DNA of 64,000 nucleotides. It comes from a virus. Every line of letters begins with the position of its first letter. The first letter of the stretch is position 1. The stretch is taken from the IMG/VR virus record IMGVR_UViG_3300037047_000121, one strand, 5' to 3'. A model generated the notes under the pieces. That model worked only from the letters and a program-made list of their open reading frames with translations. It made no database searches and had not been told where the DNA came from. This document shows positions 2,181 to 63,833 of the stretch, in pieces. A program made the translations under genes and the position numbers.

Positions 2181-2208
2181 GGGATCATTCCCCGGACGAT
2201 CCGAGTAG
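2181..2208 (+). promoter_or_regulatory. GGGATCAT-N14-GAGTAG promoter-like motif
   Basis: Motif copy; ATG of downstream gene at 2241. Confidence 0.45.
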
Positions 2209-2240
2209 TCCCCACAAGGGACACCCAAGAGAGGGGAGAA

Positions 2241-2654
2241 ATGAGCAAGCGAAAACATGGAAGGCCCAGCCCGAGACTCGCAGATTTGCGGGCTCTCCTG
2301 GTGGAGCAGCGGAACGTCCGGCACGCACAGCGGGGGCTGATGGGGTCGCTCGTGCAGGTTCAGCGGTTCATGGTCGACCCCGATCTGGCGGCGCTGCACA
2401 AGCTGATGCAGAGCAAGGTGGGTCAGACCACGGTGTGGGCTCGGAGCGCCAGTCTGGCTTACGCCTTCATGCGCAACAGGACGCTGGACGAGGCCGTCTC
2501 GCCGCGGACGAGGATCCCGCTGTTCGCGGGAACGATCCACGTGGTCATGACGCACTGCGGGGTCGAGGGCATCACCCTGCGGCACGTGGACACGTGGCTC
2601 AAGGAGCGCACCCTGCGGCGCCGGGACATCGTGCATCAGGAGGTGGTGGAATGA
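2241..2654 (+). CDS. hypothetical protein
   Basis: ORF track; RBS GAGAGGGGAG before ATG; promoter-like motif upstream. Confidence 0.6.
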   Translation: MSKRKHGRPSPRLADLRALLVEQRNVRHAQRGLMGSLVQVQRFMVDPDLAALHKLMQSKVGQTTVWARSASLAYAFMRNRTLDEAVSPRTRIPLFAGTIHVVMTHCGVEGITLRHVDTWLKERTLRRRDIVHQEVVE

Positions 2655-2914
2655 GCCAGAAGCAGACCGCCTGGGCGGAAGCGAAAGGCACCGTGGGGCT
2701 GGCATTCGACCTCAGAAAGGTGGAACCTCGGGCCTTCGAGGTTTCGCTGGGGCTGGACTACATCTGCCTCATTTCCAAGCATCCGGACAAGCCACTCTGG
2801 GCCGCCACGCACAACTGCGTGCCCGACCCGAAGCACGACGCAGACCGCTACGAGTACCCCACCCCGATCCGCGCCGTTCAGGCGTACCGGAAGATACGCG
2901 CCGCACGGGGCTAA
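2651..2914 (+). CDS. hypothetical protein
   Basis: In-frame ATG at 2651 overlaps the upstream stop (ATGA); product MSQKQTAWAEAKG...; part of longer track ORF 2042..2914. Confidence 0.5.
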   Translation: MSQKQTAWAEAKGTVGLAFDLRKVEPRAFEVSLGLDYICLISKHPDKPLWAATHNCVPDPKHDADRYEYPTPIRAVQAYRKIRAARG

Positions 2915-2960
2915 AAACGGGTAGAGCATGTGTGGGATCCCCAAAGGGAGGAGTTTGCAC

Positions 2961-3281
2961 ATGCTTTTCGAGTTGCCCGACGGAAATGTCCTGTCCCTTA
3001 CGGACTTTTACTTTGAGGTCGCGGACGAGTTAGACCACGATGATAACGTGAGTTATTTCGTGCGCATTGTATGTCTGCCCCGCAGCCTCGCTTTTCGGCT
3101 GACCCCATTTTTCCCAACCATGAAAGAGGCACGCGAGGCCATGGTGGCTATTGGTCAGTTCATCTTGAATGGTGGGAGTTCTGATGTCCGGCCAGTTGAG
3201 ATTCTCCGCCTCATGAGGGATCTGGTACAGGAGACAATGGCATGCTGCGTGTCGGAATCACAGCTACCCAAACTGGACTGA
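2961..3281 (+). CDS. hypothetical protein
   Basis: ATG 2961 preceded by AAAGGGAGGAG; track ORF 2928..3281. Confidence 0.5.
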   Translation: MLFELPDGNVLSLTDFYFEVADELDHDDNVSYFVRIVCLPRSLAFRLTPFFPTMKEAREAMVAIGQFILNGGSSDVRPVEILRLMRDLVQETMACCVSESQLPKLD

Positions 3282-3685
3282 CTCCAGTTCAGAGGGGCAA
3301 CCTTGAACGAACCCTGTTGGCTTTTGCCAAACGGGGGCCGTTGGAACTCCACCACGGGGACTGTATCGGAGGGGATGCAGCGGCGGACGAGATCGCCCGT
3401 CAGTATGGGATCCGGAGGGTCATCCATCCTCCGGAGAACCCGAGCAAAAGGGCTCGTTGTGCCGGGGAGGTGATCCTTCCCGAGAAAGCCTATCTCGATC
3501 GGAATCATGATATCGTGGACGTTTCCGACGTGCTGGTGGCATGTCCCAAAGGCATGATGGAAGAACAGCGCTCTGGAACGTGGGCCACGGTTCGATACGC
3601 CCGCAAACTGGGGCGCAAAGTCATGATCCTGTTCCCAGACGGTTCTGTAGTCACCGAGACGAGAGCACATGGCGCGAAAATCTAA
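3242..3685 (+). CDS. SLOG/DUF2493-like Rossmann-fold protein (DprA/LOG superfamily-like)
   Basis: RVGITATQTG...LELHHGDCIGGDAAADEIARQYG follows the phage DUF2493 pattern (V.TGsR...vvHGaCp.GADa.A..wA). Confidence 0.45.
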   Translation: MLRVGITATQTGLTPVQRGNLERTLLAFAKRGPLELHHGDCIGGDAAADEIARQYGIRRVIHPPENPSKRARCAGEVILPEKAYLDRNHDIVDVSDVLVACPKGMMEEQRSGTWATVRYARKLGRKVMILFPDGSVVTETRAHGAKI

Positions 3686-4166
3686 AAAGCAAGAGACTCC
3701 AACTCCGGCTCCCCCGAGGGAATCTTCGAAATACGAGGTGATCTATCGAAGGTCAGCAGAAGGACCGGAACGACCCGCAGGGGGGGATCCCACGGATGTG
3801 GCCCCGGGGGACGTGCTGACATTTTTCCTGGAGGGGCGATTTACATCACGGATCGTAGAATCTGTTTCCTTAAAAGGGGTGAAAACGGCAGCTTCCAGAA
3901 TGGGACGAATGCTGGTAGCGGAATCGGAGACCGTTAACTATGATCAGTTTTATGATGTGATTCGCTGGACGACTCAACCTGACACGACAACTCCGAAAGA
4001 GGTAGACCTTTCGTGTGAACCAGAGCTACCCCCGGAAGATCCGGGGTCCGAAGTACTGGATGTCCCCCCCGAGGATCCGCATCCGGGGGATACCTTATTA
4101 GGTGAATTGCTGAAACCAGCGCCGAAACTCGATGAGATTAGTGCCGAAGATTTTATGTTCAGTTGA
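3669..4166 (+). CDS. hypothetical protein
   Basis: ORF track; Pro/Glu-rich. Confidence 0.5.
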   Translation: MARKSKKQETPTPAPPRESSKYEVIYRRSAEGPERPAGGDPTDVAPGDVLTFFLEGRFTSRIVESVSLKGVKTAASRMGRMLVAESETVNYDQFYDVIRWTTQPDTTTPKEVDLSCEPELPPEDPGSEVLDVPPEDPHPGDTLLGELLKPAPKLDEISAEDFMFS

Positions 4167-4183
4167 TGTGAAAGGGTTATGGA

Positions 4184-5236
4184 ATGCATGTAGCCATTGT
4201 GGGCGGCGGTCCTGCAGGTTGTGCCGCCGCCCAAACCCTCCAGCAGCAAGGAGCCCGCGTTACTTTGGTAGACCCTATGCGGGAGGCCCCCATCTGTGGT
4301 GGTGGGCTGACGCATCAGGCTGTTCAGATGCTTCAGAAACTTGGATTGTGGCACCAAGGGTACACCACTCTGGAGATCCCCTCCTCAGTGTGGGAAACTC
4401 CGTCAGGAAAAACCTATCGGTATGCGCCTACCAGTATGGAAGAACGTCTGCACTCGGTAGACCGACAAAAGTTTGATGCAGCACTACGTGAACAGGTATC
4501 CCAAAAAGGTGTCACGCTAATTTCGGATCGAGTCCTTGCTCTTCAGCATCACCGAAAAACAGTCACTCTCACAGGAGAGCGGGGAAATCAGCTTCAGGCT
4601 GATGTCGTGTTTATGGCCAATGGACACGAGGTGCGTAGGTTTTTCCGAAAAGTGAACCCCATCGGAGGACGTGCGGTAGCTGCCATCCTGGATTTCCCTG
4701 TTCAGTGGCAAAAAGCCTCCTTCTATTTGTCCCCCTGCGTCCTTCCTGGATATGCCTGGATTTTTCCCTGGCCCGGAAATCGAATGTCCATCGGTGCCAA
4801 ACTCACCCCCCATCGTCATGGGCAAGCACTGAGATTTTTGCGGGGCTTGAGTCCGACACCGGATTACCACGTTACCTATAGGCCCCTGTGTTCCAACAGG
4901 GTGCCAAATCATCTTGTGCCGCGGAACATGTTCCTGCTGGGGGATGCCGCGGGACTGGTAGATCCTCTGACGGGGGAGGGGATCTCGTACGCTCTGGAAA
5001 GCGGTTTCCTGGCTGCCAACTGTCTCTCTCATAGCCCGGATCCGACGGAAGCTCGTCAGAGGTATGAAATCCTGCTCCGGTCTCGTTATAGTCTGCTGCG
5101 ACTCGTATCACGTATGGGGTACCAGTTTGCCAAATCAACGGAGTTGACGGAAATTGGATCCCGCATGATGGGATCGGAGATCTGGGCAAGTTTCGCGGCT
5201 CGCTGGTTCGGTCAGGGAACGCCTCTTCCTTTCTAA
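4184..5236 (+). CDS. FAD-dependent oxidoreductase, geranylgeranyl reductase-like family
   Basis: N-terminal dinucleotide-binding VAIVGGGPAGCAAA; LLGDAAGLVDPLTGEGISYALESG motif typical of GGR/FAD-dependent hydroxylases. Confidence 0.75.
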   Translation: MHVAIVGGGPAGCAAAQTLQQQGARVTLVDPMREAPICGGGLTHQAVQMLQKLGLWHQGYTTLEIPSSVWETPSGKTYRYAPTSMEERLHSVDRQKFDAALREQVSQKGVTLISDRVLALQHHRKTVTLTGERGNQLQADVVFMANGHEVRRFFRKVNPIGGRAVAAILDFPVQWQKASFYLSPCVLPGYAWIFPWPGNRMSIGAKLTPHRHGQALRFLRGLSPTPDYHVTYRPLCSNRVPNHLVPRNMFLLGDAAGLVDPLTGEGISYALESGFLAANCLSHSPDPTEARQRYEILLRSRYSLLRLVSRMGYQFAKSTELTEIGSRMMGSEIWASFAARWFGQGTPLPF

Positions 5237-5237
5237 C

Positions 5238-5265
5238 GGGATCATCTCCCCAGAGTTCTGAGTAG
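5238..5265 (+). promoter_or_regulatory. GGGATCAT-N14-GAGTAG promoter-like motif
   Basis: Motif copy; downstream ATG 5288/5295. Confidence 0.45.
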
Positions 5266-5294
5266 GTAACCCAGGATTGCTTGGGGGATGCGTT

Positions 5295-5576
5295 ATGTCC
5301 TGCTACAACTTCATGAAGCGTGCAGATCGGCAGCGGCTCCGTCAGGATCGCGAGGCCGAGATCCAGGCTGTCCGGGATGGCCTCTGGCCTCGCGATATCG
5401 ACGACCGGATGCGCTGGAACTGCAAGGATACGAACCCGTATTTCTCGGCGGCCGAGAACCGTCGGATCATGGCGGAGTACGCCGCGCGCATGTGCCAGCG
5501 AGAAGTCGACTACCTGGACGACCTGGAACGGCGGCTGGCGGCCGACGACCCGGATCTCGTGGGGTGGGAGCGTTGA
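5295..5576 (+). CDS. hypothetical protein
   Basis: Track ORF 5277..5576; start uncertain between 5288 and 5295. Confidence 0.45.
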   Translation: MSCYNFMKRADRQRLRQDREAEIQAVRDGLWPRDIDDRMRWNCKDTNPYFSAAENRRIMAEYAARMCQREVDYLDDLERRLAADDPDLVGWER

Positions 5577-5592
5577 GGAATCGTCCTTCCGA

Positions 5593-5620
5593 GGGATCAT
5601 TCGAGCGGACAGTGGAGTAG
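5593..5620 (+). promoter_or_regulatory. GGGATCAT-N14-GAGTAG promoter-like motif
   Basis: Motif copy; downstream ATG 5661. Confidence 0.45.
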
Positions 5621-5660
5621 TCCTGATGCGGGGGTTAGACCCCATCAGGAAGGATGAACC

Positions 5661-6041
5661 ATGAAGAAGCTCACGGTCCGTGTGAATTACGACACCTACG
5701 ACGCCCTCAACCGCAAGGCCGAGGAACTCAACATGACGGTGGCGGCGCTCATGCGTCGTCTGGCCGAGGATGCCACGGGGACGGGGGAATACATCACCCT
5801 CCCGGTTCGCACGTGCAACCCCAGCAACCGGATGGAGCACGTCATCCGGCGTACGCTCATCTCCGAAACCGTGGCTGTGTTCAACCACGGGTTCACGGAT
5901 CCGCACACGGGGCGTGTCCGCGGGGCCGGACTCATCCCGGCCATCATCTACGTCAGGCAGAACACGGGGCTCGGCCTGCCCGAGGGTAAGGACGTCACGG
6001 AGCAGATCCTGGCCAACGCGGGGCTGTTCCAGTATCGGTAG
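5661..6041 (+). CDS. ribbon-helix-helix (CopG/Arc-like) domain protein
   Basis: N-terminus MKKLTVRVNYDTYDALNRKAEELNMTVAALMRRLA has a beta-strand/helix/helix RHH pattern. Confidence 0.55.
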   Translation: MKKLTVRVNYDTYDALNRKAEELNMTVAALMRRLAEDATGTGEYITLPVRTCNPSNRMEHVIRRTLISETVAVFNHGFTDPHTGRVRGAGLIPAIIYVRQNTGLGLPEGKDVTEQILANAGLFQYR

Positions 6042-6053
6042 GGGAGCCTACGC

Positions 6054-6081
6054 GGGATCATCCGTCCACCAGTTTGAGTAG
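6054..6081 (+). promoter_or_regulatory. GGGATCAT-N14-GAGTAG promoter-like motif
   Basis: Motif copy; downstream ATG 6103. Confidence 0.45.
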
Positions 6082-6102
6082 TACTGGTGGGAGGGAACAA
6101 AA

Positions 6103-6567: not shown

Positions 6568-6577
6568 GGATCAAAGG

Positions 6578-7303: not shown

Positions 7304-7309
7304 CCCCTC

Positions 7310-7338
7310 GGGATCAATCCCACCCCGTGCCCGAGTAG
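7310..7338 (+). promoter_or_regulatory. GGGATCAA-N15-GAGTAG promoter-like motif (variant)
   Basis: Motif copy; downstream ATG 7361. Confidence 0.4.
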
Positions 7339-7360
7339 TCCCCCCGGAAAGGTGCCAGCC

Positions 7361-7995: not shown

Positions 7996-8053
7996 CTTGT
8001 GCTCCAAAACTTGTTGGCCTAGGCTTGAGGTAGACGGTAGCCTTCCTATCCAA

Positions 8054-8084
8054 CCCCTCTGATCGAGTGTTTCGATCAGAGGGG
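8054..8084 (+). terminator. perfect 13-bp inverted repeat hairpin (CCCCTCTGATCGA-GTGTT-TCGATCAGAGGGG) followed by CTTT
   Basis: Seen directly in the sequence between the gene ending at 7995 and the ATG at 8091. Could be a terminator or an operator palindrome. Confidence 0.4.
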
Positions 8085-9539: not shown

Positions 9540-9567
9540 GGGATCATTCCGGGGCTTCCCTGAGTAG
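9540..9567 (+). promoter_or_regulatory. GGGATCAT-N14-GAGTAG promoter-like motif
   Basis: Motif copy; downstream ATG 9589. Confidence 0.45.
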
Positions 9568-9810: not shown

Positions 9811-9851
9811 CCCCGTTCGGAGTAGATCTCAGGGTAGCAAGCGGAGGTGTC

Positions 9852-11306: not shown

Positions 11307-11333
11307 GGGATCATTCTCAGCACCCTCAGAGTA
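11307..11333 (+). promoter_or_regulatory. GGGATCAT-N13-GAGTAG promoter-like motif
   Basis: Motif copy; downstream ATG 11355. Confidence 0.45.
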
Positions 11334-11354
11334 GTCCTCCTGAAAGGAGGACGC

Positions 11355-17726: not shown

Positions 17727-17754
17727 GGGATCATCCCTCCGGATCTCAGAGTAG
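17727..17754 (+). promoter_or_regulatory. GGGATCAT-N14-GAGTAG promoter-like motif
   Basis: Motif copy; downstream ATG 17780. Confidence 0.45.
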
Positions 17755-19902: not shown

Positions 19903-19930
19903 GGGATCACTTTTACCGGGTTCAGAGTAG
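19903..19930 (+). promoter_or_regulatory. GGGATCAC-N14-GAGTAG promoter-like motif
   Basis: Motif copy; downstream ATG 19980. Confidence 0.45.
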
Positions 19931-21675: not shown

Positions 21676-21749
21676 AAAGTCGAGGCTGATTCCCCCGGAT
21701 CCTGAGTAGGATAGGGTTGTGACGGATCCTATCCGAAAGGGAGACCTGA

Positions 21750-23476: not shown

Positions 23477-23983
23477 ATGACCACATCGGATCCATTAGAC
23501 CTCCGCCGTCTTCGGGACATTGCCGTGAAGTTCCGAAGAATGATCATGACCTATGAGAACACAGATCCGAAACCCAAGTTCCGACTTTCGGCAGAGGTCG
23601 GGATTTCAGATCCCAGTACCCGAAATCTGTGGTTTCGTATGGAGGGGCATGAGGTCTGCCTCTGTATGGAGGATCTCGTGATACTGCTGGATTTTGGGAC
23701 TCAAATGGTGATGAAAGTTCCCGAGGATCAATTGGAAAGTCCGGGATCATCCTCGCCCCCCCAGAGTAGTCTTGCTGGAAACAGGGGGCTACATGGGCAC
23801 CTGGGAGACCAAGGAATTCGGCAAGCGGGTCTGGACGCACGAGGGCTGGAAAATCACGGTCTGGGACCAGGGGACGCCGGACATCGAGGGCCCGAACGGC
23901 GAGGACATCGATGTGGACCTCGAACGGGGCACCCTCAACGTTTACCACTACGTCACCGACGGTGGAAACTACGGCGCGCGTAA
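23477..23983 (+). CDS. hypothetical protein (3' extent doubtful)
   Basis: ATG 23477 within track ORF 23387..23983. The C-terminal about 70 codons are Arg/Gly-rich and overlap 23793..24056 in another frame. Confidence 0.3.
   Translation: MTTSDPLDLRRLRDIAVKFRRMIMTYENTDPKPKFRLSAEVGISDPSTRNLWFRMEGHEVCLCMEDLVILLDFGTQMVMKVPEDQLESPGSSSPPQSSLAGNRGLHGHLGDQGIRQAGLDARGLENHGLGPGDAGHRGPERRGHRCGPRTGHPQRLPLRHRRWKLRRA
23743..23769 (+). promoter_or_regulatory. GGGATCAT-N13-GAGTAG promoter-like motif
   Basis: Motif copy inside the preceding ORF; downstream ATG 23793. Confidence 0.4.
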
Positions 23984-25249: not shown

Positions 25250-25277
25250 GGGATCATTACCTCCGCCCGCCGAGTAG
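25250..25277 (+). promoter_or_regulatory. GGGATCAT-N14-GAGTAG promoter-like motif
   Basis: Motif copy; downstream ATG 25318. Confidence 0.45.
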
Positions 25278-27344: not shown

Positions 27345-29662
27345 TTTTCTACGCCAAAGGCAAAGAGCGGAGGAACGGACGGGAGTTCTACCCCCGGGGT
27401 TTCACGCTGGAAGGACACACACGAGAGTGTGCCGAAATGGCACTGTTCCTGCTGACGAAGGTTCCGTTCGGGCGTCTCCTTCACCAGAAAATGGCACTTC
27501 AGATCCCGTACGAGGATTTCGTCCGTGTCTGCCTGCTGGCAGTGATCCTGCACGACATCGGCAAATCCGGCCCGGAGTTCTTTGGCATGATCGAGTCTCA
27601 GATCCTGGGGCTGGACCGAAGGAAGCAGAACTACCGACATGAGATCCTCTCCGCCATCATCCTTTTCCGTTTGTGGAAGTGGCTTGTCAAGGCAGCAGGA
27701 AACAAAAGATATGCCAAGTACGTGTTGTCCGCTGTCCGAGGGCACCACATCAAAACGGAAAAGGAACTGAACGACTCTTCCGAGAAAATACGGGAATGGC
27801 GTGCTGTCGACGTCATCCAGATCTACAATGATATCTTGGCTCAGTACGGGTTTCCACACATCACGGATGCCCCCTGGAAAAACAACGCGGTAAAACTTTC
27901 CTCCCGACAGGTTGCTCTGGCCAATCGTATTTTCCGGGAGGACGAGCATTTCAGCGAAGATCAAATGGCGGAAACGCCGGAGTCACTCGCTGTCAAATTC
28001 GTACTGGTGCTCTCGGACACGTTGGGGTCGCTCTCCTGGAAAAGCCCTGAACAGCAGCCCGGGTTCAACGACACGATCAAGGATTTCGTGCGACAGATCT
28101 ATGCCCCACGAAACATCGACTACAAGTCCCGCATCCAGGGGTGGGATACGATCCAGCACACATTGCGGGATTTTCAGAAGGACATCCAGACCGTGGAGGG
28201 GGATGCCATCCTGCAAGCATTCTGCGGGGGAGGAAAAACGGCAGCGGTACTTTTGTGGGCATCAAGGTGTCCCCAGATTCCGCTTGTCATCACGACTCCC
28301 ACTACGGGAACAAGTTCCCAGCTTTTCCAGGACTACGGCCGGATCGATCAGGACTTCAATCGGCACTCCCGTGCAAGTGTGGACTCCCTGATCCGGTGGC
28401 TGGCAAAACAGAACACAAACGTCCCTGACTTTCTGAACCCGTACAATGAAGCGAAGGAGGTGGGGGAAAAAGAGACCCCGGAGAAAGCGTGGGAAAAGGA
28501 AGAGCAAGAGGCTGCGGAAGAGTCTCTCGCGGTGGCGGACACGTTCGCGTCTTGTCTCAAAGACGTCACGTTTGCCACGGTGGATCAGGTGCTGGGGGTC
28601 ATGAGCTACTCCCGTAAATCGATCCTCTGGCTGCTCTACCTCGTAATGGCGCAGATGGCTTTCGACGAGTTCCACGCCTATGACGAGGAACTGACCCGCT
28701 GGCATCAGCAATTTCTGCGGTTTTTCCCGGGAATCCGCACTCTGAATCTGAGTGCCACGATTGCGGAACAGCAGCGCCGACGGGTACTGGATGTTCGACC
28801 TCACGCCCAGTTCATAACCACCAAGGAGTCGGACGGAGACAAACCGAGGTACCAGCTTCACCTTCTGGGCAGTGAACAGGAAGCCCTCACCCATTTCCGG
28901 GATGCCCGCAAGGTACTCTGGATTTCCAACAAGGTGGCTGACTGCCAGCGAGTGGCAGCGTTGTTTGACGACGCCTTGTGCTACCATGCTCGGTTCCGAT
29001 ACTACGACCGAGTGGCCATCCACGCAGAGATGGTGGCAGCATTCCGAGACAAGCAGGAACTCCGGGAAATCCGGGCTGTTACCACCCAGGTTGCGGAGAT
29101 GTCTTTGGACATTTCCGCCATGCTTGGGATCTTCGCGCTGTGTCCGTTTGTCTCATTGATCCAGCGACTCGGCCGAATCAACCGGATGCTGGAATACGGC
29201 GTGGCGGATGTTTACATCTACCGCCCGGAACGTCCGTCCCCTTACGTCATGGTACGAACGGACAAAGCGGTTGAGGAGGTCTTCCGTTCGTGGGAGGACG
29301 CTATCCGTCCGCTGCTCGGTCGCCCCGTTTCTCAGCGGGAACTGATGGAGCACGCGGCGTCCCTCCCCGCGGGAGTGCCCCCGGATCTGAACGTGTATCA
29401 ACCGATGATCGCAACAGCCCGAAGATCGCTGCGGGACGGGGGTACCTACAGCATCGTGTTGCAGCAGGATTGGGAGAAAAACCCCAAGAGATTCGAGGAC
29501 TCCCGAATTGTGAGTGCCTACGAGATTCCGACCAATGAGTACGATCTGGAGGAAGCTCTGAAGGCCAAACGGGAAGGACGGGAAGTTCACCACCGGCTGG
29601 TACTGCCCCGTGAATATGATGCGCGTCTGGGGCTTTTTCCTAAAAAGGGGATCATCCGCTGA
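27341..29662 (+). CDS. cas3: Cas3 HD nuclease-helicase
   Basis: HD domain (GHTRE, ILHDIGK, YRHEI). Helicase motifs are Walker A CGGGKTAA, DExH DEFH, SAT (LSATIAE) and motif VI QRLGRINR. ATGA overlap with cas6. Confidence 0.9.
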   Translation: MIFYAKGKERRNGREFYPRGFTLEGHTRECAEMALFLLTKVPFGRLLHQKMALQIPYEDFVRVCLLAVILHDIGKSGPEFFGMIESQILGLDRRKQNYRHEILSAIILFRLWKWLVKAAGNKRYAKYVLSAVRGHHIKTEKELNDSSEKIREWRAVDVIQIYNDILAQYGFPHITDAPWKNNAVKLSSRQVALANRIFREDEHFSEDQMAETPESLAVKFVLVLSDTLGSLSWKSPEQQPGFNDTIKDFVRQIYAPRNIDYKSRIQGWDTIQHTLRDFQKDIQTVEGDAILQAFCGGGKTAAVLLWASRCPQIPLVITTPTTGTSSQLFQDYGRIDQDFNRHSRASVDSLIRWLAKQNTNVPDFLNPYNEAKEVGEKETPEKAWEKEEQEAAEESLAVADTFASCLKDVTFATVDQVLGVMSYSRKSILWLLYLVMAQMAFDEFHAYDEELTRWHQQFLRFFPGIRTLNLSATIAEQQRRRVLDVRPHAQFITTKESDGDKPRYQLHLLGSEQEALTHFRDARKVLWISNKVADCQRVAALFDDALCYHARFRYYDRVAIHAEMVAAFRDKQELREIRAVTTQVAEMSLDISAMLGIFALCPFVSLIQRLGRINRMLEYGVADVYIYRPERPSPYVMVRTDKAVEEVFRSWEDAIRPLLGRPVSQRELMEHAASLPAGVPPDLNVYQPMIATARRSLRDGGTYSIVLQQDWEKNPKRFEDSRIVSAYEIPTNEYDLEEALKAKREGREVHHRLVLPREYDARLGLFPKKGIIR

Positions 29663-29675
29663 CCTACCTGAGTAG
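29648..29675 (+). promoter_or_regulatory. GGGATCAT-N14-GAGTAG promoter-like motif inside the 3' end of cas3
   Basis: Motif copy immediately upstream of the large-subunit gene. Confidence 0.4.
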
Positions 29676-39663: not shown

Positions 39664-39691
39664 GGGATCATTTCCGGCGTCCCCTGAGTAG
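39664..39691 (+). promoter_or_regulatory. GGGATCAT-N14-GAGTAG promoter-like motif
   Basis: Motif copy; downstream ATG 39735. Confidence 0.45.
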
Positions 39692-40161: not shown

Positions 40162-40189
40162 GGGATCATTCTCTGCCAGGACTGAGTAG
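40162..40189 (+). promoter_or_regulatory. GGGATCAT-N14-GAGTAG promoter-like motif
   Basis: Motif copy; downstream ATG 40215. Confidence 0.45.
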
Positions 40190-42716: not shown

Positions 42717-42744
42717 GGGATCATTTCCCCCCGTCCCCGAGTAG
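42717..42744 (+). promoter_or_regulatory. GGGATCAT-N14-GAGTAG promoter-like motif
   Basis: Motif copy; downstream ATG 42768. Confidence 0.45.
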
Positions 42745-43214: not shown

Positions 43215-43242
43215 GGGATCATTTCGGCCTGACCCAGAGTAG
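43215..43242 (+). promoter_or_regulatory. GGGATCAT-N14-GAGTAG promoter-like motif
   Basis: Motif copy; downstream ATG 43267. Confidence 0.45.
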
Positions 43243-44631: not shown

Positions 44632-44664
44632 GTGTGAACGAGTAGGACATGCCGGAGGGTCCCA

Positions 44665-45231: not shown

Positions 45232-45560
45232 TGGAACGGGATATGGTTCGGTGGCAATGCTGGGAGACGGTGGGCTATAGCCCTATCAACATCCTAATTG
45301 CACATGCCAACTGCTCAGGGTGTCAGCATCCGTTCAACGTTCCCGTGTGGGATGTCATTTACCGCGGGTGGCGGGGTGACCCCGTGTATCTCCACCAGTA
45401 CGATCTGGAGGCGCTGCAATTTCATCTGAATCCGGAACAATGCCCCAGATGCTCCGGCGTCCAGTTGCCCCCGGCTCCGGGAAAAATCTCGCGCACCGAG
45501 ACGGGTGACCTGATCGTCACCCCCGCGGAGGAATCCTGGATCATTCGCACCGTCTCCTGA
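45231..45560 (+). CDS. hypothetical protein
   Basis: ORF track. Confidence 0.45.
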   Translation: MERDMVRWQCWETVGYSPINILIAHANCSGCQHPFNVPVWDVIYRGWRGDPVYLHQYDLEALQFHLNPEQCPRCSGVQLPPAPGKISRTETGDLIVTPAEESWIIRTVS

Positions 45561-45564
45561 GTAG
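45537..45564 (+). promoter_or_regulatory. TGGATCAT-N14-GAGTAG promoter-like motif (variant)
   Basis: Motif copy within the 3' end of the preceding ORF; downstream ATG 45581. Confidence 0.4.
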
Positions 45565-46211: not shown

Positions 46212-46745
46212 ATGGCCGTTTTCTTGCGGCGTTGTCGCACTCATAAGGATCTGGCCTCCTACCATCAGATTCTCCGCTCGATCTGGGACGAGGGTGGTAT
46301 CACCCGTCGGCACATGTACTCAAATTGGACCGCGTGTCCGGCCCCTGATCGTACTGACTCCATGTTCGGGGCCGTGTTTTTGGTATTCAGTGACGGGGAA
46401 CCCGTTGGGTTTTTCGATGCCGAACTTCCTTACTTGAATGAGGCCGTTATCATCTCCTACGGGCTCGTAGCCGGAGCACGAGGCAAGGGGATCGGGCGCA
46501 TCGCCCTTCGTCGGGTGCTGATACGGCTCTCGGAATTCCCGCTGGTCGAGGCCCACATCCACAGTGCCAACCGGGCCTCCCGGGCTCTTGTAGAGAGCGC
46601 CGGTTTCCGGCATACGGGGTACTCCGACGAGTTGCTCGTTTTCCTTCTGGATCGTGAAGAACTGGCCGCCCGGCAGGGATTTCGGGCGTCGGTTTCGAGT
46701 AGATCCGATCAGAGTTTGGAAACCAGGATTGCTCATGTGCCCTGA
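46212..46745 (+). CDS. GNAT family N-acetyltransferase
   Basis: PVGFFDAE...GLVAGARGKGIGRIALRRVL...AHIHSANRASRALVESAGF; ATG 46212 within track ORF 46155..46745. Confidence 0.7.
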   Translation: MAVFLRRCRTHKDLASYHQILRSIWDEGGITRRHMYSNWTACPAPDRTDSMFGAVFLVFSDGEPVGFFDAELPYLNEAVIISYGLVAGARGKGIGRIALRRVLIRLSEFPLVEAHIHSANRASRALVESAGFRHTGYSDELLVFLLDREELAARQGFRASVSSRSDQSLETRIAHVP

Positions 46746-49986: not shown

Positions 49987-50034
49987 GTCGCCCAAAAAAG
50001 AGTAGAGACCCCTGCAAGCAGCAGGAGGCTCATC

Positions 50035-54784: not shown

Positions 54785-54871
54785 TTTCGTCCTCAAATCC
54801 TATGGAATAGAGTAGAGAGCTATGTCGGTTCCTGTCGTCATGGCTCTATTCAGCAACCGAAGGAATGAAGC

Positions 54872-57113: not shown

Positions 57114-57364
57114 CACCTGAGGATCGGGCTGAGTTAGCCCAAAACCTGACCGAGCGCATCCTCGTGTGGAAAACGCTCTCGTTGCCTGTATGCTGGTACG
57201 AACTGGAGGATATCCTCCGGGGGATCGTCACCCTTGCCTCGGAGGCCCCCAAAACGCCCCACCAGTGCCCCATCTGCAATGGGACGGGGAGCGTAAGGGC
57301 TGATGGAATCGTAGCGACCAAGCCGTGTCCCGTGTGTTTGGGGGCGCGAATCCTGTGGGGATAG
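57110..57364 (+). CDS. small protein with DnaJ-type CxxCxGxG zinc finger
   Basis: CPICNGTGS...CPVCLG; ATG 57110 within track ORF 56945..57364. Confidence 0.4.
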   Translation: MTPEDRAELAQNLTERILVWKTLSLPVCWYELEDILRGIVTLASEAPKTPHQCPICNGTGSVRADGIVATKPCPVCLGARILWG

Positions 57365-57395
57365 AGTAGATCCATTCGTCCAAGGAGGAGTCTAC

Positions 57396-58095: not shown

Positions 58096-58097
58096 CC

Positions 58098-59807: not shown

Positions 59808-60236
59808 ATGACTCCGCACACCCAGCTAATCCTGGGTGGCGACGGGAAGGATGGCAAACCCCCAGGGGATTGCATCCGAACTTCCGTTGCCTGTTTGTTT
59901 GACCTGGATCCAACTACTGTCCCGCATTTCCTAGAGAATGGCCCCGATTTCTGCTGGCGCAACATGGCGAACTGGAGTCGGGAGCGCGGGTTTGCTCCTC
60001 TCCAACTCGTCAACCAACCCGGCAAACTTTTGTTGGACTACTACGCAGCGGTATATCTCCGGGGTGTCTATCATCTCATCCATGGGATGGGACCCCGAGG
60101 GTGGCGACATTGCGTGGTAGGCTTCGGCGGGGACATCGTTCATGACCCGCATCCCAGCAGAGCGGGACTGACCGAGATCGAGGCATACACCCTCTTTGTG
60201 GCTGTCGACCCGGCAAAAACCAGCGTGTTCGAGTAG
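59808..60236 (+). CDS. hypothetical protein (possible Cys/His peptidase-like)
   Basis: ORF track; conserved-looking Cys (DCIRTSVAC) and His (YHLIHG, HDPHP) clusters; weak. Confidence 0.45.
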   Translation: MTPHTQLILGGDGKDGKPPGDCIRTSVACLFDLDPTTVPHFLENGPDFCWRNMANWSRERGFAPLQLVNQPGKLLLDYYAAVYLRGVYHLIHGMGPRGWRHCVVGFGGDIVHDPHPSRAGLTEIEAYTLFVAVDPAKTSVFE

Positions 60237-60258: not shown

Positions 60259-60747
60259 ATGGTACATGACCCCTTCGGCCGATTTGAACAGGCCACAATC
60301 ACCGACGTTTTGGCAAACCATCCGGAACTGACCCAGGAGGACCTGAAAAACGTCATCCAGGATCTGGTGTCCTTCTCCGCTCAGAATAACCGTATCTGCA
60401 CCGCGAACGTCCTAGAAGCTTTGGTTGCTACCGGACTGCGAGATTTGGTACAGGCCAGACAGGAAGAACTCTCGCAGGAACGGGAGCGGGTCCGGCAGGA
60501 AACGTTCGAGCGGACGAAAGAGCTACTCCCCAAGCCCAACCAGCTTGTGAAGCCCTGGGGGAGCAAAATTGCCCACATCGTATCCTCGGACCCACCAACG
60601 ACATACGGAAGTGATGGGACGGCCGTAACAAACACCGTGTGCGGCGGCCACATGCTGGCACCCCCACGAGGGGAGGCCGACTGGGTAATCGTGTCTAACG
60701 TAGACACACACGTCTGCAAGATGTGCAAGGCCAAGAAAAAGTCCTGA
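60259..60747 (+). CDS. hypothetical protein
   Basis: ATG 60259 after AAGGAGGAAAC; within track ORF 60196..60747. Confidence 0.5.
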   Translation: MVHDPFGRFEQATITDVLANHPELTQEDLKNVIQDLVSFSAQNNRICTANVLEALVATGLRDLVQARQEELSQERERVRQETFERTKELLPKPNQLVKPWGSKIAHIVSSDPPTTYGSDGTAVTNTVCGGHMLAPPRGEADWVIVSNVDTHVCKMCKAKKKS

Positions 60748-60763: not shown

Positions 60764-60791
60764 GGGATCATCTCCTCCTGCCCCAGAGTAG
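60764..60791 (+). promoter_or_regulatory. GGGATCAT-N14-GAGTAG promoter-like motif
   Basis: Motif copy; downstream ATG 60812. Confidence 0.45.
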
Positions 60792-60811: not shown

Positions 60812-61132
60812 ATGTTCCGTAACGATGATCTCGTCAGCTACCTCGAAGAGATGGCCAGCCTGCGGCACGGTCGGGGCACCGAGTGCCCCGACTGCGGTCG
60901 GTCGGACTGCAACGGGCACCCGGAGTTCTACCAGGACGCGGCACCATGGGCAGAGGTCGAGCTCTACGAGGACGGGATCCTCGTGGGGATCTGCACCGTG
61001 CAGGAACTGCGGGACGCCAACGCCGAGGACACGGAACTGCTGGGGCACCTGGATACGCTCGGGGCGCAGCGCGTCATTCGCTGGGGTGGCGGTTCCCAGC
61101 CCGAGTACAAGATCCGCCTCAAGGGGGAGTGA
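60812..61132 (+). CDS. hypothetical protein
   Basis: ORF track; RBS GAAGGAGG. Confidence 0.5.
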   Translation: MFRNDDLVSYLEEMASLRHGRGTECPDCGRSDCNGHPEFYQDAAPWAEVELYEDGILVGICTVQELRDANAEDTELLGHLDTLGAQRVIRWGGGSQPEYKIRLKGE

Positions 61133-62087: not shown

Positions 62088-62115
62088 GGGATCATTCCCG
62101 CCCGGGTCTGAGTAG
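62088..62115 (+). promoter_or_regulatory. GGGATCAT-N14-GAGTAG promoter-like motif
   Basis: Motif copy; downstream ATG 62164. Confidence 0.45.
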
Positions 62116-62163
62116 AGCCAATAAGGGGATCCTGGATTCAAACCCGACGAAAAGGGACTGAAC

Positions 62164-62556
62164 ATGTCGACCTGGGAATACAAGGAAGGCCCGTTCGTTT
62201 GCACCGTCACCGAGGTGCAGTGGGCGGATGTCGAAACGGTCGGCTGGTGGGTGTTCAAGCGAGAGCGCCGGAACAAGAGATACCGTTTCGACTGGCAGGT
62301 TCGGTACCGTGCCAGCGACCGAGTCCTGAAGTCCGGTTCGGCACTGACGCGCTATGGCGCCGACAAGGGCTGCGACGACGCCATGGCCGAGGTACGGGAG
62401 AAGACCCCCTACTTCGTGACGGTCATCGGAACCTGCTCCAAGTGCGGGGATCTGATGTACGGGGGTGAGGGTTACGAAAGCAGTTCCGTGAACGGCAACC
62501 GAGTTCTTGTCTGCCTCCTGAACGGATGTGACACAGATGCTCCTGTTTCTCGATGA
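62164..62556 (+). CDS. hypothetical protein
   Basis: ORF track. Confidence 0.5.
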   Translation: MSTWEYKEGPFVCTVTEVQWADVETVGWWVFKRERRNKRYRFDWQVRYRASDRVLKSGSALTRYGADKGCDDAMAEVREKTPYFVTVIGTCSKCGDLMYGGEGYESSSVNGNRVLVCLLNGCDTDAPVSR

Positions 62557-63184
62557 CACGCGCCAACCCCCGCCGGGGTTCAGCCTCGTCCGATGGCCTG
62601 ATGAGGCCATCGAGGCGCTGAAAACTGGACGGGTGGAGCATCTCAGCCTCGACCACGATCTGGGGGATGACACTCGGGGCACGGGCTACGACGTGATCCT
62701 CTGGATCGAGGAGCAAGTGGCAACACGTGGCTGGAACCCGCCCGGGATCATCGAGGTGCATTCCTCCAACTCCAGCGCCCGGGTCAAGATGGAGAACGGA
62801 ATCGAGTCCATTCGTCGGCTCCAGTTCCGGAATGCTCTGGATGCGTACATATCCCTGCGGGCAAACCTCCAAGGCATCCGGAAAGCCTACGCGGGGGGAC
62901 TCACGCCAGAGGCGACCCCAGAACACGTGATGAATCTTCTGGGGGCGGTGTACACGCTCGACTGTTACCTGACGGGCAAAACGTCGGGACGCTGTTCCCA
63001 AGACCTTGAGTGTGCCCGGAAACTCTGGGGTCTTGAGGACTGGACTGTATACCTCTCGGATGGGGGATACTCTCGGATCGTCCTGAGTTTCGATCCCCCC
63101 TGGCTCTGGATTGTTCGGTTGGGGATCTCAACCCCCACCGTCATCTCCAGATGGGAAATGATTGAAGAAGCCTTGGCGGAGTGA
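62537..63184 (+). CDS. hypothetical protein with receiver-like N-terminus
   Basis: MLLFLDDTRQPP...LSLDHDLGDD resembles a REC / cyclic-phosphate-processing receiver-like fold; tentative. Confidence 0.4.
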   Translation: MLLFLDDTRQPPPGFSLVRWPDEAIEALKTGRVEHLSLDHDLGDDTRGTGYDVILWIEEQVATRGWNPPGIIEVHSSNSSARVKMENGIESIRRLQFRNALDAYISLRANLQGIRKAYAGGLTPEATPEHVMNLLGAVYTLDCYLTGKTSGRCSQDLECARKLWGLEDWTVYLSDGGYSRIVLSFDPPWLWIVRLGISTPTVISRWEMIEEALAE

Positions 63185-63187
63185 GCC

Positions 63188-63598
63188 ATGCGCAGGGTCT
63201 ATCTGGTCGACACGCACCCGATCCATCAGATGTGCGAGTTCGACCAACTCGTATCCTCGGGGTTCATGGTCGAGAGCCCGTCAACGGAAAGGGAATTCCT
63301 GGTGCGCAGCATCGAGGCGATCCGCCAGAGTCCTGAGGACTGGGTTCTGGTGATTGACCCGCGGGTGCGCGGAACGTTGTCGCGGGATTTCCTGCGGGCG
63401 GCGTTGACCTGCGGGGCGGTGGTCGTGGCGATTTCCACGTACACCCCGAGGCAGTTCGACGACCTGTGCAAGGAAGAGGGACTGGCCCCCAGCGCGGGCT
63501 ATCTGGAGAAGCCATTCCGGATTGCGGAACTGGCCCGGAGTATCAAGTCATGCCTCAGCAGTCCGAACAGCAGGTATGTTCGAGGGGTGGCGTTTTGA
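63188..63598 (+). CDS. hypothetical protein
   Basis: ORF track. Confidence 0.45.
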   Translation: MRRVYLVDTHPIHQMCEFDQLVSSGFMVESPSTEREFLVRSIEAIRQSPEDWVLVIDPRVRGTLSRDFLRAALTCGAVVVAISTYTPRQFDDLCKEEGLAPSAGYLEKPFRIAELARSIKSCLSSPNSRYVRGVAF

Positions 63599-63761
63599 TT
63601 TCATACCAGGGCACCGCGACTAGTCGTCCATTCGGGATAGTCTGGAACGCCCTCCGCAAATCCTCGACCGCTTTGTCGTAAACGTCCTGGGGCATCTGAT
63701 ATCCCGGGCTAACGATGACGACGACCGTGTCCGCGATCTGAATCTGTGCATAGTCCAACAT
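63555..63761 (-). CDS. hypothetical small protein (minus strand)
   Basis: ORF track; convergent with 63188..63598 and overlapping its 3' end. Confidence 0.3.
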   Translation of the reverse strand: MLDYAQIQIADTVVVIVSPGYQMPQDVYDKAVEDLRRAFQTIPNGRLVAVPWYEIKTPPLEHTCCSDC

Positions 63762-63805
63762 GAGAAACCTCCAGGTTTGTTCGGAGTACTTTACCCAGGA
63801 TCATG

Positions 63806-63833
63806 GGATCATCTTCGCCTCTCCCAGAGTAGA
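63806..63833 (+). promoter_or_regulatory. GGGATCAT-N14-GAGTAG promoter-like motif
   Basis: Motif copy; downstream ATG 63854. Confidence 0.45.

What the first reader, a model, noticed from the sequence alone, without database searches (positions are those of the whole stretch)
2181..63833. About 20 copies of a bipartite motif GGGATCAT-N14-GAGTAG(TCC), all on the plus strand, 30-50 nt upstream of start codons
Copies sit at 2181, 5238, 5593, 6054, 7310, 9540, 11307, 17727, 19903, 23743, 25250, 29648, 39664, 40162, 42717, 43215, 45537, 60764, 62088 and 63806. Gapless variants GGATCC/GGGGAT-GAGTAG are at 21694 and about 57360. The spacing is essentially fixed (13-15 nt) while the spacer sequence varies. 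The second box often extends to GAGTAGTCC. Each copy is followed by an AGGAGG-like RBS and ATG, and several copies lie inside the 3' end of the preceding gene. This looks like a family of promoters for one sigma factor or phage RNA polymerase (for example one temporal class). It could instead be a transcription-factor operator or an RNA processing site. The motif does not resemble the sigma70 consensus.
Basis: seen in the sequence. Interest (0 to 1): 0.7.

Follow-up and report, generated by a model that had tools for sequence, protein, structure and literature searches.

The report
Phage promoter family GGGATCAT-N14-GAGTAG
A two-box DNA signal that sits in front of about twenty gene groups in this piece of an uncultivated large phage is almost certainly a family of phage-specific promoters, probably read by an unusual sigma factor that related phages encode.

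Summary
There are 20 plus-strand copies of GGATCA-N12-18-GAGTAG (0.03 expected) and one good minus-strand copy in front of minus-strand genes. All are intergenic or overlap only the last codons of the upstream gene. All point at the next gene, and GAGTAG ends 20-49 nt before its start codon. The signal is all-or-none: PWM scores are 27-40 bits, with nothing between 8 and 27. It has no RNA structure and does not resemble sigma-70. The same motif is dense in about a dozen large IMG/VR phage contigs from other samples that share almost no genes with the window. Across 112 copies, unselected positions are also conserved (Y9, Y10, C21, T35, R36), which places a likely start site 8 nt after GAGTAG, right at the ribosome-binding site. 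The window encodes no sigma factor or RNA polymerase. Motif-bearing relatives encode a divergent two-domain, ECF-like sigma in operons headed by the motif. More distant sigma paralogs co-occur with a sister motif, TGCTTAG-N14-SAGTAG. Verdict: a phage-specific sigma-type promoter family, a new member of a known kind. The sigma assignment is correlative and no transcript 5' end was mapped.

The parts
2181..2208 (+). motif copy (N14); next gene 2241-2654
   Evidence: 34.5 bits
2104..2131 (-). motif copy with one mismatch (GGGATGAT); drives minus-strand ORF 2070-1807 and the intein-containing ligase gene 1810-2; back to back with the copy at 2181
   Evidence: (27.6 bits)
5238..5265 (+). motif copy; next gene 5295-5576
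5593..5620 (+). motif copy; next gene 5661-6041; leader can form a hairpin that includes the Shine-Dalgarno sequence
6054..6081 (+). motif copy; next gene 6103-6567
7310..7338 (+). variant copy (GGGATCAA, N15 spacer); next ATG at 7361
9540..9567 (+). motif copy starting 1 nt after the topoisomerase IB stop codon; next gene 9589-9810
11307..11334 (+). motif copy; heads a gene string from 11355 to about 16869 with no further copy
17727..17754 (+). motif copy; next gene 17780-18178
19903..19930 (+). motif copy (GGGATCAC); next gene 19980-20255
23743..23769 (+). variant copy (N13 spacer); next gene 23793-24056
25250..25277 (+). motif copy; next gene 25318-25857, followed by CRISPR array 1, cas6 and cas3
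29648..29675 (+). motif copy overlapping the last codons of cas3; next gene is the cas8-like ORF. Its position favours the ATG at 29702 over 29684, which would lie upstream of the predicted start site.
39664..39691 (+). motif copy (best score, 39.7 bits); next gene 39735-39974
40162..40189 (+). motif copy; followed by a Shine-Dalgarno sequence and an ATG at 40216 (short ORF)
42717..42744 (+). motif copy; next gene 42768-42971
43215..43242 (+). motif copy; next gene 43267-43830
45537..45564 (+). motif copy (TGGATCAT) overlapping the end of gene 45231-45560; heads a string of about 35 genes up to 60747 with no further full copy
60764..60791 (+). motif copy; next gene 60812-61132
62088..62115 (+). 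motif copy; next gene 62164-62556
63805..63832 (+). motif copy; next gene starts at 63853
9820..9825 (+). GAGTAG box without a full upstream box (ACGATCTG at about N15); next gene 9853-11304
21704..21709 (+).
44640..44645 (+). GAGTAG-only box; next gene 44665-45231
46697..46702 (+). GAGTAG-only box in the last codons of gene 46212-46745; next gene 46735
50000..50005 (+). GAGTAG-only box; next gene 50035-50391
54810..54815 (+). GAGTAG-only box (AATCCTATGGAATAGAGTAGA); next gene 54872
57364..57369 (+).
60231..60236 (+). GAGTAG-only box at the stop codon of gene 59808-60236; next gene 60259-60747

Best explanation
The motif is a family of phage-specific promoters of the bacterial sigma type.

**Proposed mechanism**
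- GGGATCAT(YY) acts as the -35-like box. Its invariant core is GATCAT.
- C-N-GAGTAG acts as the -10-like box.
- The two boxes are 14 +/-1 nt apart, which puts their centres about two helical turns apart on one face of the DNA.
- Transcription would start at the conserved T35/R36 step, 8 nt after GAGTAG. The mRNA would then begin at or just before the Shine-Dalgarno sequence, with a leader of roughly 13-40 nt.

**Proposed reader**
- The most likely reader is host core RNA polymerase carrying a phage-encoded, highly divergent two-domain (sigma2 + sigma4, ECF-like) sigma factor.
- This protein family is represented here by P0001. It is found in relatives that carry the same motif.
- In those relatives the sigma gene lies in an operon headed by the motif, after a ligase gene, so it would reinforce its own expression.
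- By synteny, the window's own copy may lie beyond the left end of the window, downstream of the ligase gene at 1810-2.

**Gene organisation in the window**
- The promoters head units that range from one gene to about 35 genes of non-structural and accessory genes.
- These units include the phage's CRISPR-Cas genes.

**Shown versus inferred**
- Shown: the motif, its placement, its conservation, the sigma homology, and the co-occurrence of sigma and motif.
- Inferred: promoter activity, the start site, and which protein reads the motif.
For: **Motif reality and placement**
- 20 plus-strand copies were found against 0.03 expected.
- PWM scores are bimodal, 27-40 bits versus 8 or less.
- No copy lies inside a gene. 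All are co-oriented with the next gene, and GAGTAG ends 20-49 nt before its start codon.
- A back-to-back divergent pair occupies the 170-bp gap at 2071-2240. Similar pairs occur in relatives.

**Family conservation**
- The motif occurs at 0.14-0.49 copies per kb in about a dozen IMG/VR contigs from other samples.
- Only 6 window proteins have homologues in those contigs.
- Across 112 copies, positions not required by the search are conserved: G1 88%, T8 99%, Y9 97%, Y10 94%, C21 82%, T35 71%, R36 86%.
- Of 122 exact GGGATCAT sites, 100 are followed by an exact GAGTAG. Variants of the upstream box keep the GATCAT core.
- Orthologous genes at 59% protein identity keep both boxes while the spacers differ.
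- In relatives, 87 of 97 copies lie outside called genes, and the median distance to the next start codon is 38 nt.

**Not an RNA structure**
- RNAalifold finds no consensus structure and folding z-scores are about 0.

**Sigma candidate**
- Pfam gives weak hits: Sigma70_r4_2 at 8e-4 and Sigma70_ECF at 0.013.
- A profile of 7 homologues searched against the PDB gives sigma-H (3mzy_A) as the top hit, E = 0.0025, across both domains. Most of the top 27 hits are sigma factors.
- hhalign against E. coli sigma-E gives 90.7% probability, E = 1.3e-6, over 141 columns.

**Link between sigma and motif**
- L150: motif at 7494, then ligase, then an ORF, then the sigma gene at 10001-10651, then another motif at 10654.
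- L137 (46% GC; sigma 40% identical): AGATCAT-N14-GAGTAG lies directly upstream of the sigma gene.
- L138-L141 (sigma paralogs 28-32% identical) lack GATCAT-N14-GAGTAG.
- L139 instead has 7 copies of TGCTTAG-N14-SAGTAG against 0.02 expected. In L138 and L139 these copies head the ligase-sigma operons.
- In the sigma alignment, 10 of the 11 invariant residues lie in the N-terminal (sigma2) half. This matches a conserved -10 box and a changeable -35 box.

**Not a common cellular promoter**
- The 17-base consensus gives only 12 scattered, non-promoter-like hits in 185,579 species genomes.
- Sigma-70-like sites in the window are at or below chance.
Against: - No transcript 5' ends are available, so promoter activity and the start site are inferred.
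- The window encodes no sigma factor and no homologue of P0001.
- Several other motif-bearing contigs, all incomplete, also show no P0001 homologue.
- The sigma-motif link therefore rests on two lineages with the same motif and one lineage with a sister motif.
- More distant sigma homologues (L143, L145) show no SAGTAG-type motif.
- The genome scan needed an exact 17-base consensus, so it would miss a host that uses degenerate versions.
- The host is unknown.
- Some minus-strand genes (for example 38585-39610) and long plus-strand gene strings have no full copy, so other promoter types must exist.
Confidence: 0.6

Rival explanations
1. The motif is a promoter, but a host-encoded sigma factor reads it. 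This could be an alternative sigma or the primary sigma of an uncharacterised host lineage. Unrelated phages of the same host would then have converged on the host's consensus.
For: - Contigs that share almost no genes share the identical motif, as expected for a host-determined signal.
- No sigma gene is found in the window or in most motif-bearing fragments.
- The box geometry (8-nt box, N14, 6-nt box ending GTA-) resembles group-3 sigma promoters such as B. subtilis sigma-B, GTTTAA-N12-15-GGGTAT (my own knowledge).
Against: - None of the 185,579 species genomes has a credible copy of the consensus.
- The all-or-none score distribution, with 14 invariant positions, is unlike graded host promoters.
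- The motif is kept in a 46% GC relative directly upstream of a phage sigma gene.
- The upstream box changes together with the phage sigma paralog.
Confidence: 0.2
2. The motif is the promoter of a phage-encoded RNA polymerase. This could be a single-subunit T7-like or N4-like enzyme, or a multisubunit enzyme that may be delivered with the virion and is encoded outside the window.
For: - The near-invariant, all-or-none motif resembles the promoter families of phage polymerases.
- The genes served look like early or middle genes (DNA metabolism, defence and counter-defence).
- Relatives lie on contigs of 418-528 kb, a size class in which phage-encoded multisubunit polymerases are known (PMC7598289).
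Against: - Two boxes separated by a sequence-free spacer that tolerates +/-1 nt is the signature of sigma-type recognition. It does not fit the contiguous promoters of T7-like enzymes or the short start-site motifs of phiKZ and AR9 enzymes (my own knowledge; PMC5449584).
- No polymerase catalytic signatures were found in about 1.1 Mb of fetched sequence.
- No RNA polymerase families appeared in the Pfam scans.
Confidence: 0.08
3. The motif is an operator or activator site. A phage DNA-binding protein would bind GGGATCAT and/or GAGTAG to switch on or off a core promoter that lies elsewhere or overlaps it. The paradigm is the T4 MotA box combined with a -10 element.
For: - The family encodes many helix-turn-helix proteins and a widely shared DUF2924 protein.
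- About nine GAGTAG boxes occur without the upstream box, so the two boxes can be separated.
Against: - No other conserved promoter-like element is evident in these short gaps. Sigma-70-like sites are at chance.
- The two boxes are unlike each other and not symmetric, which is unusual for a dimeric regulator.
- The conserved T35/R36 step and the fixed position of the Shine-Dalgarno sequence fit a core promoter.
Confidence: 0.06
4. The motif works at the RNA level. It could be a processing site for a sequence-specific endoribonuclease, or a translation-linked signal like the start-associated sequences of Cluster K mycobacteriophages.
For: - The motif is strand-specific, intergenic and shortly upstream of ribosome-binding sites.
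- In a subset of copies, the TCC(TCC) that follows GAGTAG can pair with the Shine-Dalgarno sequence.
- Relatives carry a conserved leader hairpin just downstream.
Against: - There is no consensus structure and no excess folding energy.
- The box-to-box distance is fixed while the distance to the start codon varies from 20 to 49 nt or more. This is the opposite of start-associated sequences.
- Back-to-back copies in divergent gaps mean transcripts in both directions must start there.
- The upstream box co-varies with a DNA-binding sigma4 domain.
Confidence: 0.04

Closest known systems
ECF (group 4) sigma factor promoters, e.g. E. coli sigma-E GGAACTT-N16-TCTGA, M. tuberculosis SigH/SigE GGAAC-N16-17-(C)GTT
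   Same: - Two short boxes separated by a rigid spacer.
- Very high information content.
- A two-domain sigma (sigma2 + sigma4).
- The sigma gene is transcribed from its own cognate promoter.
- The upstream box GGATC differs from GGAAC at one position.
- The candidate sigma aligns with sigma-E across both domains.
   Different: - The boxes are GGGATCAT and GAGTAG, not GGAAC and CGT.
- The sigma scores below the Pfam thresholds.
- No anti-sigma factor was identified.
- The element is phage-borne and serves dozens of unrelated genes rather than a stress regulon.
Group 3 sigma promoters of the sigma-B/sigma-F type (B. subtilis sigma-B GTTTAA-N12-15-GGGTAT; from my own knowledge)
   Same: - The geometry matches: an upstream box, a spacer of about 14 nt, and a downstream hexamer of the GnGTA type (GAGTAG versus GGGTAT).
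   Different: - The upstream box is unrelated.
- The candidate sigma has no region 3.
- phmmer with SigF found nothing in the fetched sequence.
Promoters of phage-encoded sigma factors (phiEco32 gp36 and phage 7-11: TAATGTATA / TGATGT; SPO1 gp28 and gp33/34; T4 gp55 TATAAATA)
   Same: - A phage-specific, highly conserved motif upstream of many genes that is unlike the host consensus.
- The sigma gene itself lies downstream of such promoters (PMC4331800).
- These families were also found by searching for over-represented intergenic motifs.
   Different: - The phiEco32/7-11 promoters (PMC4331800) and T4 gp55 late promoters (my own knowledge) are single -10-region boxes, whereas this one is bipartite.
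- The sequence is different.
- No sequence relationship of P0001 to gp36, gp28 or gp55 was shown.
T7-like single-subunit RNA polymerase promoters
   Same: - About 20 near-identical, co-oriented copies per genome in front of gene groups.
- All-or-none conservation.
   Different: - T7-type promoters are contiguous, about 23 bp, and include the start site.
- Here a 14-nt spacer is free in sequence and varies by +/-1 nt.
- No such polymerase was found.
Start-associated sequences (SAS/ESAS) of Cluster K mycobacteriophages (from my own knowledge)
   Same: - A conserved, strand-specific motif repeated just upstream of many start codons in a phage genome.
   Different: - SAS lies 3-8 bp from the start codon and includes the ribosome-binding site.
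- Here the ribosome-binding site is a separate element.
- The distance to the start codon varies while the distance between the boxes is fixed.

Membership tests
Bacterial sigma-type (-35/-10) promoter | Two distinct boxes at a fixed distance (+/-1 nt) with a spacer free in sequence | tested here: met
   - Window: N14 in 18 copies, N13 and N15 in one each.
- Family: N14 in 94 of 97 copies.
- Spacer information content is about 0 except at C21.
Bacterial sigma-type (-35/-10) promoter | Located upstream of genes and co-oriented with them; absent from coding sequence and from the antisense strand | tested here: met
   - No window copy (0 of 21) lies inside a gene.
- 27 of 30 plus-strand GAGTAG boxes are intergenic.
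- Minus-strand GAGTAG occurs at about chance, 12 against about 14 expected from my hand calculation.
- In relatives, 87 of 97 copies lie outside called genes.
Bacterial sigma-type (-35/-10) promoter | Transcripts start 6-9 nt downstream of the -10 box | not testable with these tools
   Indirect evidence only: T35 (71%) and R36 (86%) are conserved 7-8 nt after GAGTAG in 112 copies.
Primary sigma-70 promoter (TTGACA-N17-TATAAT) | Boxes resemble TTGACA and TAnnnT | tested here: not met
   - GATCAT and GAGTAG share no more than A at the second position of the -10 box (by inspection).
- Sigma-70-like sites in the window are at or below chance.
ECF sigma regulon | A cognate two-domain sigma (sigma2 + sigma4, no region 3) is encoded by the element | tested here: inconclusive
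   - Not found in the window.
- Found in relatives that carry the same motif (L069, L098/L150).
- Pfam hits are below the gathering scores.
ECF sigma regulon | The sigma gene is transcribed from its own cognate promoter | tested here: met
   Met in relatives only.
- L150: motif 7494, then ligase, then an ORF, then sigma.
- L137: motif directly upstream of the sigma gene.
- L138 and L139: the sister motif heads the operons that contain sigma.
ECF sigma regulon | -35 box GGAAC-like and -10 box CGT-like | tested here: not met
   - The consensus is GGGATCAT / GAGTAG.
- GGATC differs from GGAAC at one position.
- The -10 box is unrelated.
ECF sigma regulon | A co-transcribed anti-sigma factor | not tested
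   A 208-aa ORF overlaps the start of the sigma gene in L150. Its function was not examined.
T7-like single-subunit RNAP promoter | A contiguous conserved block of about 20 bp spanning the start site, plus a cognate polymerase gene | tested here: not met
   - The spacer is variable.
- No polymerase motifs were found in the window or in 1.1 Mb of related loci.
- The genomes are incomplete.
Sigma-54 promoter | GG-N10-GC (-24/-12) spacing | tested here: not met
   The centres of the two boxes are about 21 bp apart.
Start-associated sequence (Cluster K mycobacteriophages) | A fixed short distance (3-8 bp) to the start codon, with the ribosome-binding site inside the motif | tested here: not met
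   - The distance from GAGTAG to the start codon is 20-49 nt.
- The Shine-Dalgarno sequence is a separate element.
Structured RNA element | A conserved secondary structure with covariation | tested here: not met
   - RNAalifold finds no structure.
- Mean folding z-score is -0.13.
- There is no Rfam hit.

The most novel reading that the evidence does not exclude
The motif and the P0001 protein family together form a previously undescribed sigma/promoter system of very large phages from stratified lakes. In this reading:
- A divergent, Pfam-invisible two-domain sigma reads a shared -10 code (SAGTAG).
- The -35 code is lineage-specific: GGGATCAT in this clade and TGCTTAG in a sister clade.
- The sigma amplifies itself from a ligase-sigma operon.
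- It drives most non-structural genes, including the phage's own CRISPR-Cas system.

If so, the system would be a ready-made set of orthogonal sigma/promoter pairs. It would also allow operon maps to be read directly from the sequence of uncultivated huge phages.
Probability: 0.5. Interest if true: 0.6.

Novelty: new member of a known kind. Interest (0 to 1): 0.5.

Why it matters
- **Transcription map without cultivation.** The motif gives a map of transcription units for an uncultivated large phage. It marks which genes head units, corrects start codons (for example 29702 rather than 29684 for the cas8-like gene), and shows that the phage's CRISPR-Cas genes sit behind phage-specific promoters.
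- **A clade marker.** The motif marks a clade of large lake phages that share almost no genes, so it can be used to recruit and bin their fragments.
- **A testable specificity pair.** If the sigma assignment holds, the pairing of P0001 with GGGATCAT-N14-GAGTAG and its paralogs with TGCTTAG-N14-SAGTAG offers a natural, testable case of sigma4/-35 co-evolution.
- **Candidate synthetic-biology parts.** The same pairs would be candidate orthogonal expression parts.
- **Limits.** This is not a new principle. Phage-encoded sigma factors with private promoters are well known.

Tried and rejected
- **Close phage relatives:** a megablast of window 1-20000 against cultured phages found nothing. Protein searches found only distant relatives.
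- **tRNA and Rfam:** nothing was found.
- **Literature:** a search for the two boxes returned only unrelated primer and sequence hits.
- **Sigma-70-type promoters and intrinsic terminators:** both are at chance in 1-20000. Across the whole window there are 2 sites with up to 2 mismatches against 4.5 in shuffles.
- **GATC in the upstream box:** GATC looked 2.4-fold enriched. Trinucleotide and codon composition explains this (observed/expected 1.03, mostly xxG-ATC). A Dam-methylation link, prompted by the D12 methylase in relatives, was not pursued and has no support.
- **Sigma search by phmmer:** RpoE, SigF and RpoD queries against all six-frame ORFs gave no hits. This shows how divergent the candidate is.
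- **Polymerase signature search:** only an irrelevant DFDGD turned up, in a 263-aa ORF.
- **Single-sequence AlphaFold2 model of P0001:** unusable, pLDDT 38.
- **Extending the window leftwards to look for its sigma gene:** the Logan contig stops inside the window, and the first 40 nt of the window have no exact match in JGI metagenomes.
- **Related-loci searches:** The P0001+P0002 alignment recovered only the two known contigs. P0004 and P0007 found nothing in IMG/VR.
- **Distant sigma homologues (L143, L145):** they show no SAGTAG-type motif.
- **The ATG in the relatives' leader hairpin loop as a real start codon:** rejected. Its frame and ORF length relative to the main gene are inconsistent.
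- **Minus-strand hit at 17710-17737:** rejected as a copy. It comes from the near-palindromic box, and its CAGTAG lies between a Shine-Dalgarno sequence and an ATG.

Full report
**1. The observation**

- GGATCA-N12-18-GAGTAG occurs 20 times, all on the plus strand, against 0.03 expected.
- The full 28-mer with up to two mismatches occurs 21 times against 0.37 expected.
- Eighteen copies have a 14-nt spacer. The copy at 23743 has 13 nt. The copy at 7310 has 15 nt and reads GGGATCAA.
- A weight matrix built from the N14 copies scores them at 27-40 bits. Nothing else in the window scores between 8 and 27 bits, so the signal is all-or-none.
- One additional good copy (GGGATGAT...GAGTAG, 27.6 bits) lies on the minus strand at 2104-2131. 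It is 33 nt upstream of a minus-strand ORF and the ligase gene, and back to back with the plus-strand copy at 2181.
- A second minus-strand hit at 17710 is an artefact of the near-palindromic box.

**2. Placement**

- With a rough gene call, no copy lies inside a gene.
- Two copies overlap the last codons of the upstream gene. Most of the others start 1-40 nt after its stop codon, and four sit in wider gaps (up to 207 nt).
- GAGTAG ends 20-49 nt before a start codon that has a Shine-Dalgarno sequence.
- GAGTAG alone is informative. Of its 30 plus-strand occurrences, 27 are intergenic although only about 13% of the window is intergenic. The 12 minus-strand occurrences are close to my hand estimate of about 14 per strand.

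**3. What the window is**

- The window has 57-63% GC and nearly all genes are on one strand.
- Most ORFs have no family assignment.
- Assigned genes include a type I-B-like CRISPR-Cas system without Cas1/2/4 flanked by two arrays, topoisomerase IB, an intein-containing NAD-dependent ligase, flotillin, a radical SAM enzyme and a DenV-like glycosylase.
- There is no sigma factor, no RNA polymerase, no tRNA and no Rfam hit.
- This profile fits the huge phages described in PMC7162821, which carry CRISPR systems lacking the adaptation genes and sometimes their own sigma factors.
- No cultured phage is close.

**4. The motif elsewhere**

- Scans of IMG/VR with the exact pattern found the motif at 0.14-0.49 copies per kb in about a dozen contigs of up to 217 kb, from several other samples.
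- One of those samples is Ace Lake, Antarctica.
- Only six window proteins have homologues in about 420 kb of these contigs.
- In 112 copies with the N14 spacer, positions the search did not require are conserved: G1 88%, T8 99%, Y9 97%, Y10 94%, C21 82%, T35 71% and R36 86%. The spacer otherwise carries no information.
- Of 122 exact GGGATCAT sites, 100 are followed by an exact GAGTAG. Weaker upstream boxes keep the core GATCAT.
- Two orthologous genes at 59% identity both keep the boxes, while the spacers and flanks have diverged beyond alignment.
- Back-to-back divergent pairs recur in relatives.
- A scan of 185,579 bacterial and archaeal species genomes with the 17-base consensus returned 12 scattered hits. 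None has the pyrimidine-rich spacer or a ribosome-binding site.

**5. RNA-level alternatives**

- RNAalifold finds no consensus structure over the motif, and folding energies equal those of shuffles.
- The box-to-box distance is fixed while the distance to the start codon varies. This argues against a translation-linked signal.
- In a subset of window copies, the TCC(TCC) after GAGTAG can pair with the Shine-Dalgarno sequence. If transcription starts at position 36, that pairing could only form in read-through RNA. Its meaning is open.

**6. Who reads it**

The architecture (two unlike boxes, 14 +/-1 nt apart, and a Y-R step 7-8 nt after the second box) is that of a sigma-dependent promoter, but not a sigma-70 one. 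Sigma-70-like sites are at or below chance.

A candidate sigma was found as follows:
- Pfam scans of 149 further representative proteins (of 140 aa or more) from the related contigs flagged a 203/216-aa protein. It occurs on L069 and on the 188-kb contig and is called P0001 here. Its sigma region 4 and ECF hits are weak.
- An exhaustive HMMER search found six full-length homologues at 25-40% identity.
- A profile of the seven sequences hits sigma-H (3mzy_A) first in the PDB, E = 0.0025, across both domains. Most of the top 27 hits are sigma factors.
- The profile aligns with E. coli sigma-E at 90.7% probability over 141 columns.
- I therefore regard the protein as a divergent two-domain member of the sigma-70 family. 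It fails Pfam's own thresholds.

**7. The link between sigma and motif**

- On the 188-kb contig, which is part of a 528-kb JGI contig, the order is motif, ligase, ORF, sigma, motif.
- In a 46% GC contig, the 40%-identical homologue P0002 is directly preceded by AGATCAT-N14-GAGTAG, a Shine-Dalgarno sequence and an ATG.
- Contigs with the 28-32%-identical paralogs P0003 and P0004 lack GATCAT-N14-GAGTAG.
- L139 instead carries seven copies of TGCTTAG-N14-(C/G)AGTAG in 20.6 kb, against 0.02 expected. In L138 and L139 these copies head the ligase-sigma and ORF-sigma operons.
- So the -10 box and the spacing stay the same while the -35 box changes with the sigma.
- Ten of the eleven invariant residues of the family lie in the sigma2 half.
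- A ligase gene lies near the sigma gene in the other contigs examined as well.
- In the window, the ligase gene runs off the left end. The cognate sigma may therefore lie just outside the window, but I could not extend the sequence.
- The most distant homologues show no such motif.

**8. Verdict**

- The finding is a real family of phage-specific promoters. I put this at about 0.85.
- It is most likely served by a phage-encoded divergent ECF-like sigma. I put this at about 0.55-0.6, because the sigma assignment is correlative.
- It is a new member of a known kind rather than a new principle.
- The main gaps are the lack of 5' end data, the unknown host, and the absence of the sigma gene from the window itself.

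Noticed in passing
window 26048-35700: A type I-B-like CRISPR-Cas locus with no Cas1/2/4 in the window. It comprises an array of 8 repeats (26048-26603), cas6 (26763-27344), cas3 (27341-29662), a DevT_N/cas8-like gene (29702-31465), two more genes (31458-33004), and a second array of at least 32 repeats (33204 to about 35700) whose distal repeats are degenerate. The repeat is GTAACAATCCCTTCTGACCCCAAAAGGTTTAGCCAC. Two motif copies (25250, 29648) sit in front of its parts.
   Followed up: partly
window 2-1810 (-): An NAD-dependent DNA-ligase-like gene is interrupted right after the KLDG motif by an intein that carries a LAGLIDADG_2 homing endonuclease. The gene runs off the left end of the window.
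   Followed up: no
window 49483-58523: A family of at least seven paralogous small genes shares the N-terminus MK(T/V/I)R(N/S/T/D/A)GFVSNSS(T/S)(T/S)SF. Several also have CxxC pairs. They have no Pfam assignment.
   Followed up: no
window 15893-15922 (+): A perfect sigma-70 consensus, TTGACA-N18-TATAAT (12 of 12), lies inside the metallo-beta-lactamase-fold gene 15257-16090. It is the only strong sigma-70-like site in the window. It could be chance or a host-polymerase promoter.
   Followed up: partly
L003, L016, L020, L021, L036, L058, L061, L100, L112, L150 and others (not in the window): In relatives, many motif copies are followed by a conserved leader element, GTGAGGGGCAAATGACCCC(T). It begins about 8 nt after GAGTAG and forms a GGGG/CCCC stem with the loop CAAATGA, ahead of the real Shine-Dalgarno sequence. 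The ATG in the loop has no consistent reading frame. It could be a 5' stabiliser or a protein-binding hairpin.
   Followed up: partly
L138-L141 (ENA ALNE18-1 scaffold_82 and related contigs): A sister motif, TGCTTAG-N14-(C/G)AGTAG, occurs 7 times in 20.6 kb of L139 (0.02 expected), all on the gene strand. The TAG of the upstream box often serves as the stop codon of the preceding gene. L139 carries two paralogs of the sigma-like protein.
   Followed up: yes
L150 / Ga0222640_1000001; L145: The 188-kb IMG/VR 'virus' 3300023257_000008 is a segment of a 528-kb JGI contig, and a sigma homologue sits on a 418-kb scaffold. The clade may therefore have genomes of 400-500 kb, or the elements may be embedded in larger replicons. 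The flanks were not examined.
   Followed up: no
window copies at 2182, 5594, 11308, 19904, 43216, 45538: The TCC(TCC) directly after GAGTAG is complementary to the downstream Shine-Dalgarno sequence, for example GTCCTCC-TGAAA-GGAGGAC at 11308. If transcription starts 8 nt after GAGTAG, this hairpin could only form in read-through transcripts from upstream units.
   Followed up: partly
related loci L016, L036, L048, L066, L100, L117, L118, L121: A DUF2924-domain protein is the most widely shared protein among the motif-bearing contigs (7 contigs, three length variants). A D12-class (Dam-like) adenine methylase is also shared, and the upstream box contains GATC.
   Followed up: no
window 51091-53930: A YqiJ_N-domain membrane protein and a 712-aa flotillin (SPFH) gene are adjacent, which is unusual cargo for a phage. 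Topoisomerase IB (8091-9539) and a DenV-like pyrimidine-dimer glycosylase (35817-36257) are also present.
   Followed up: no
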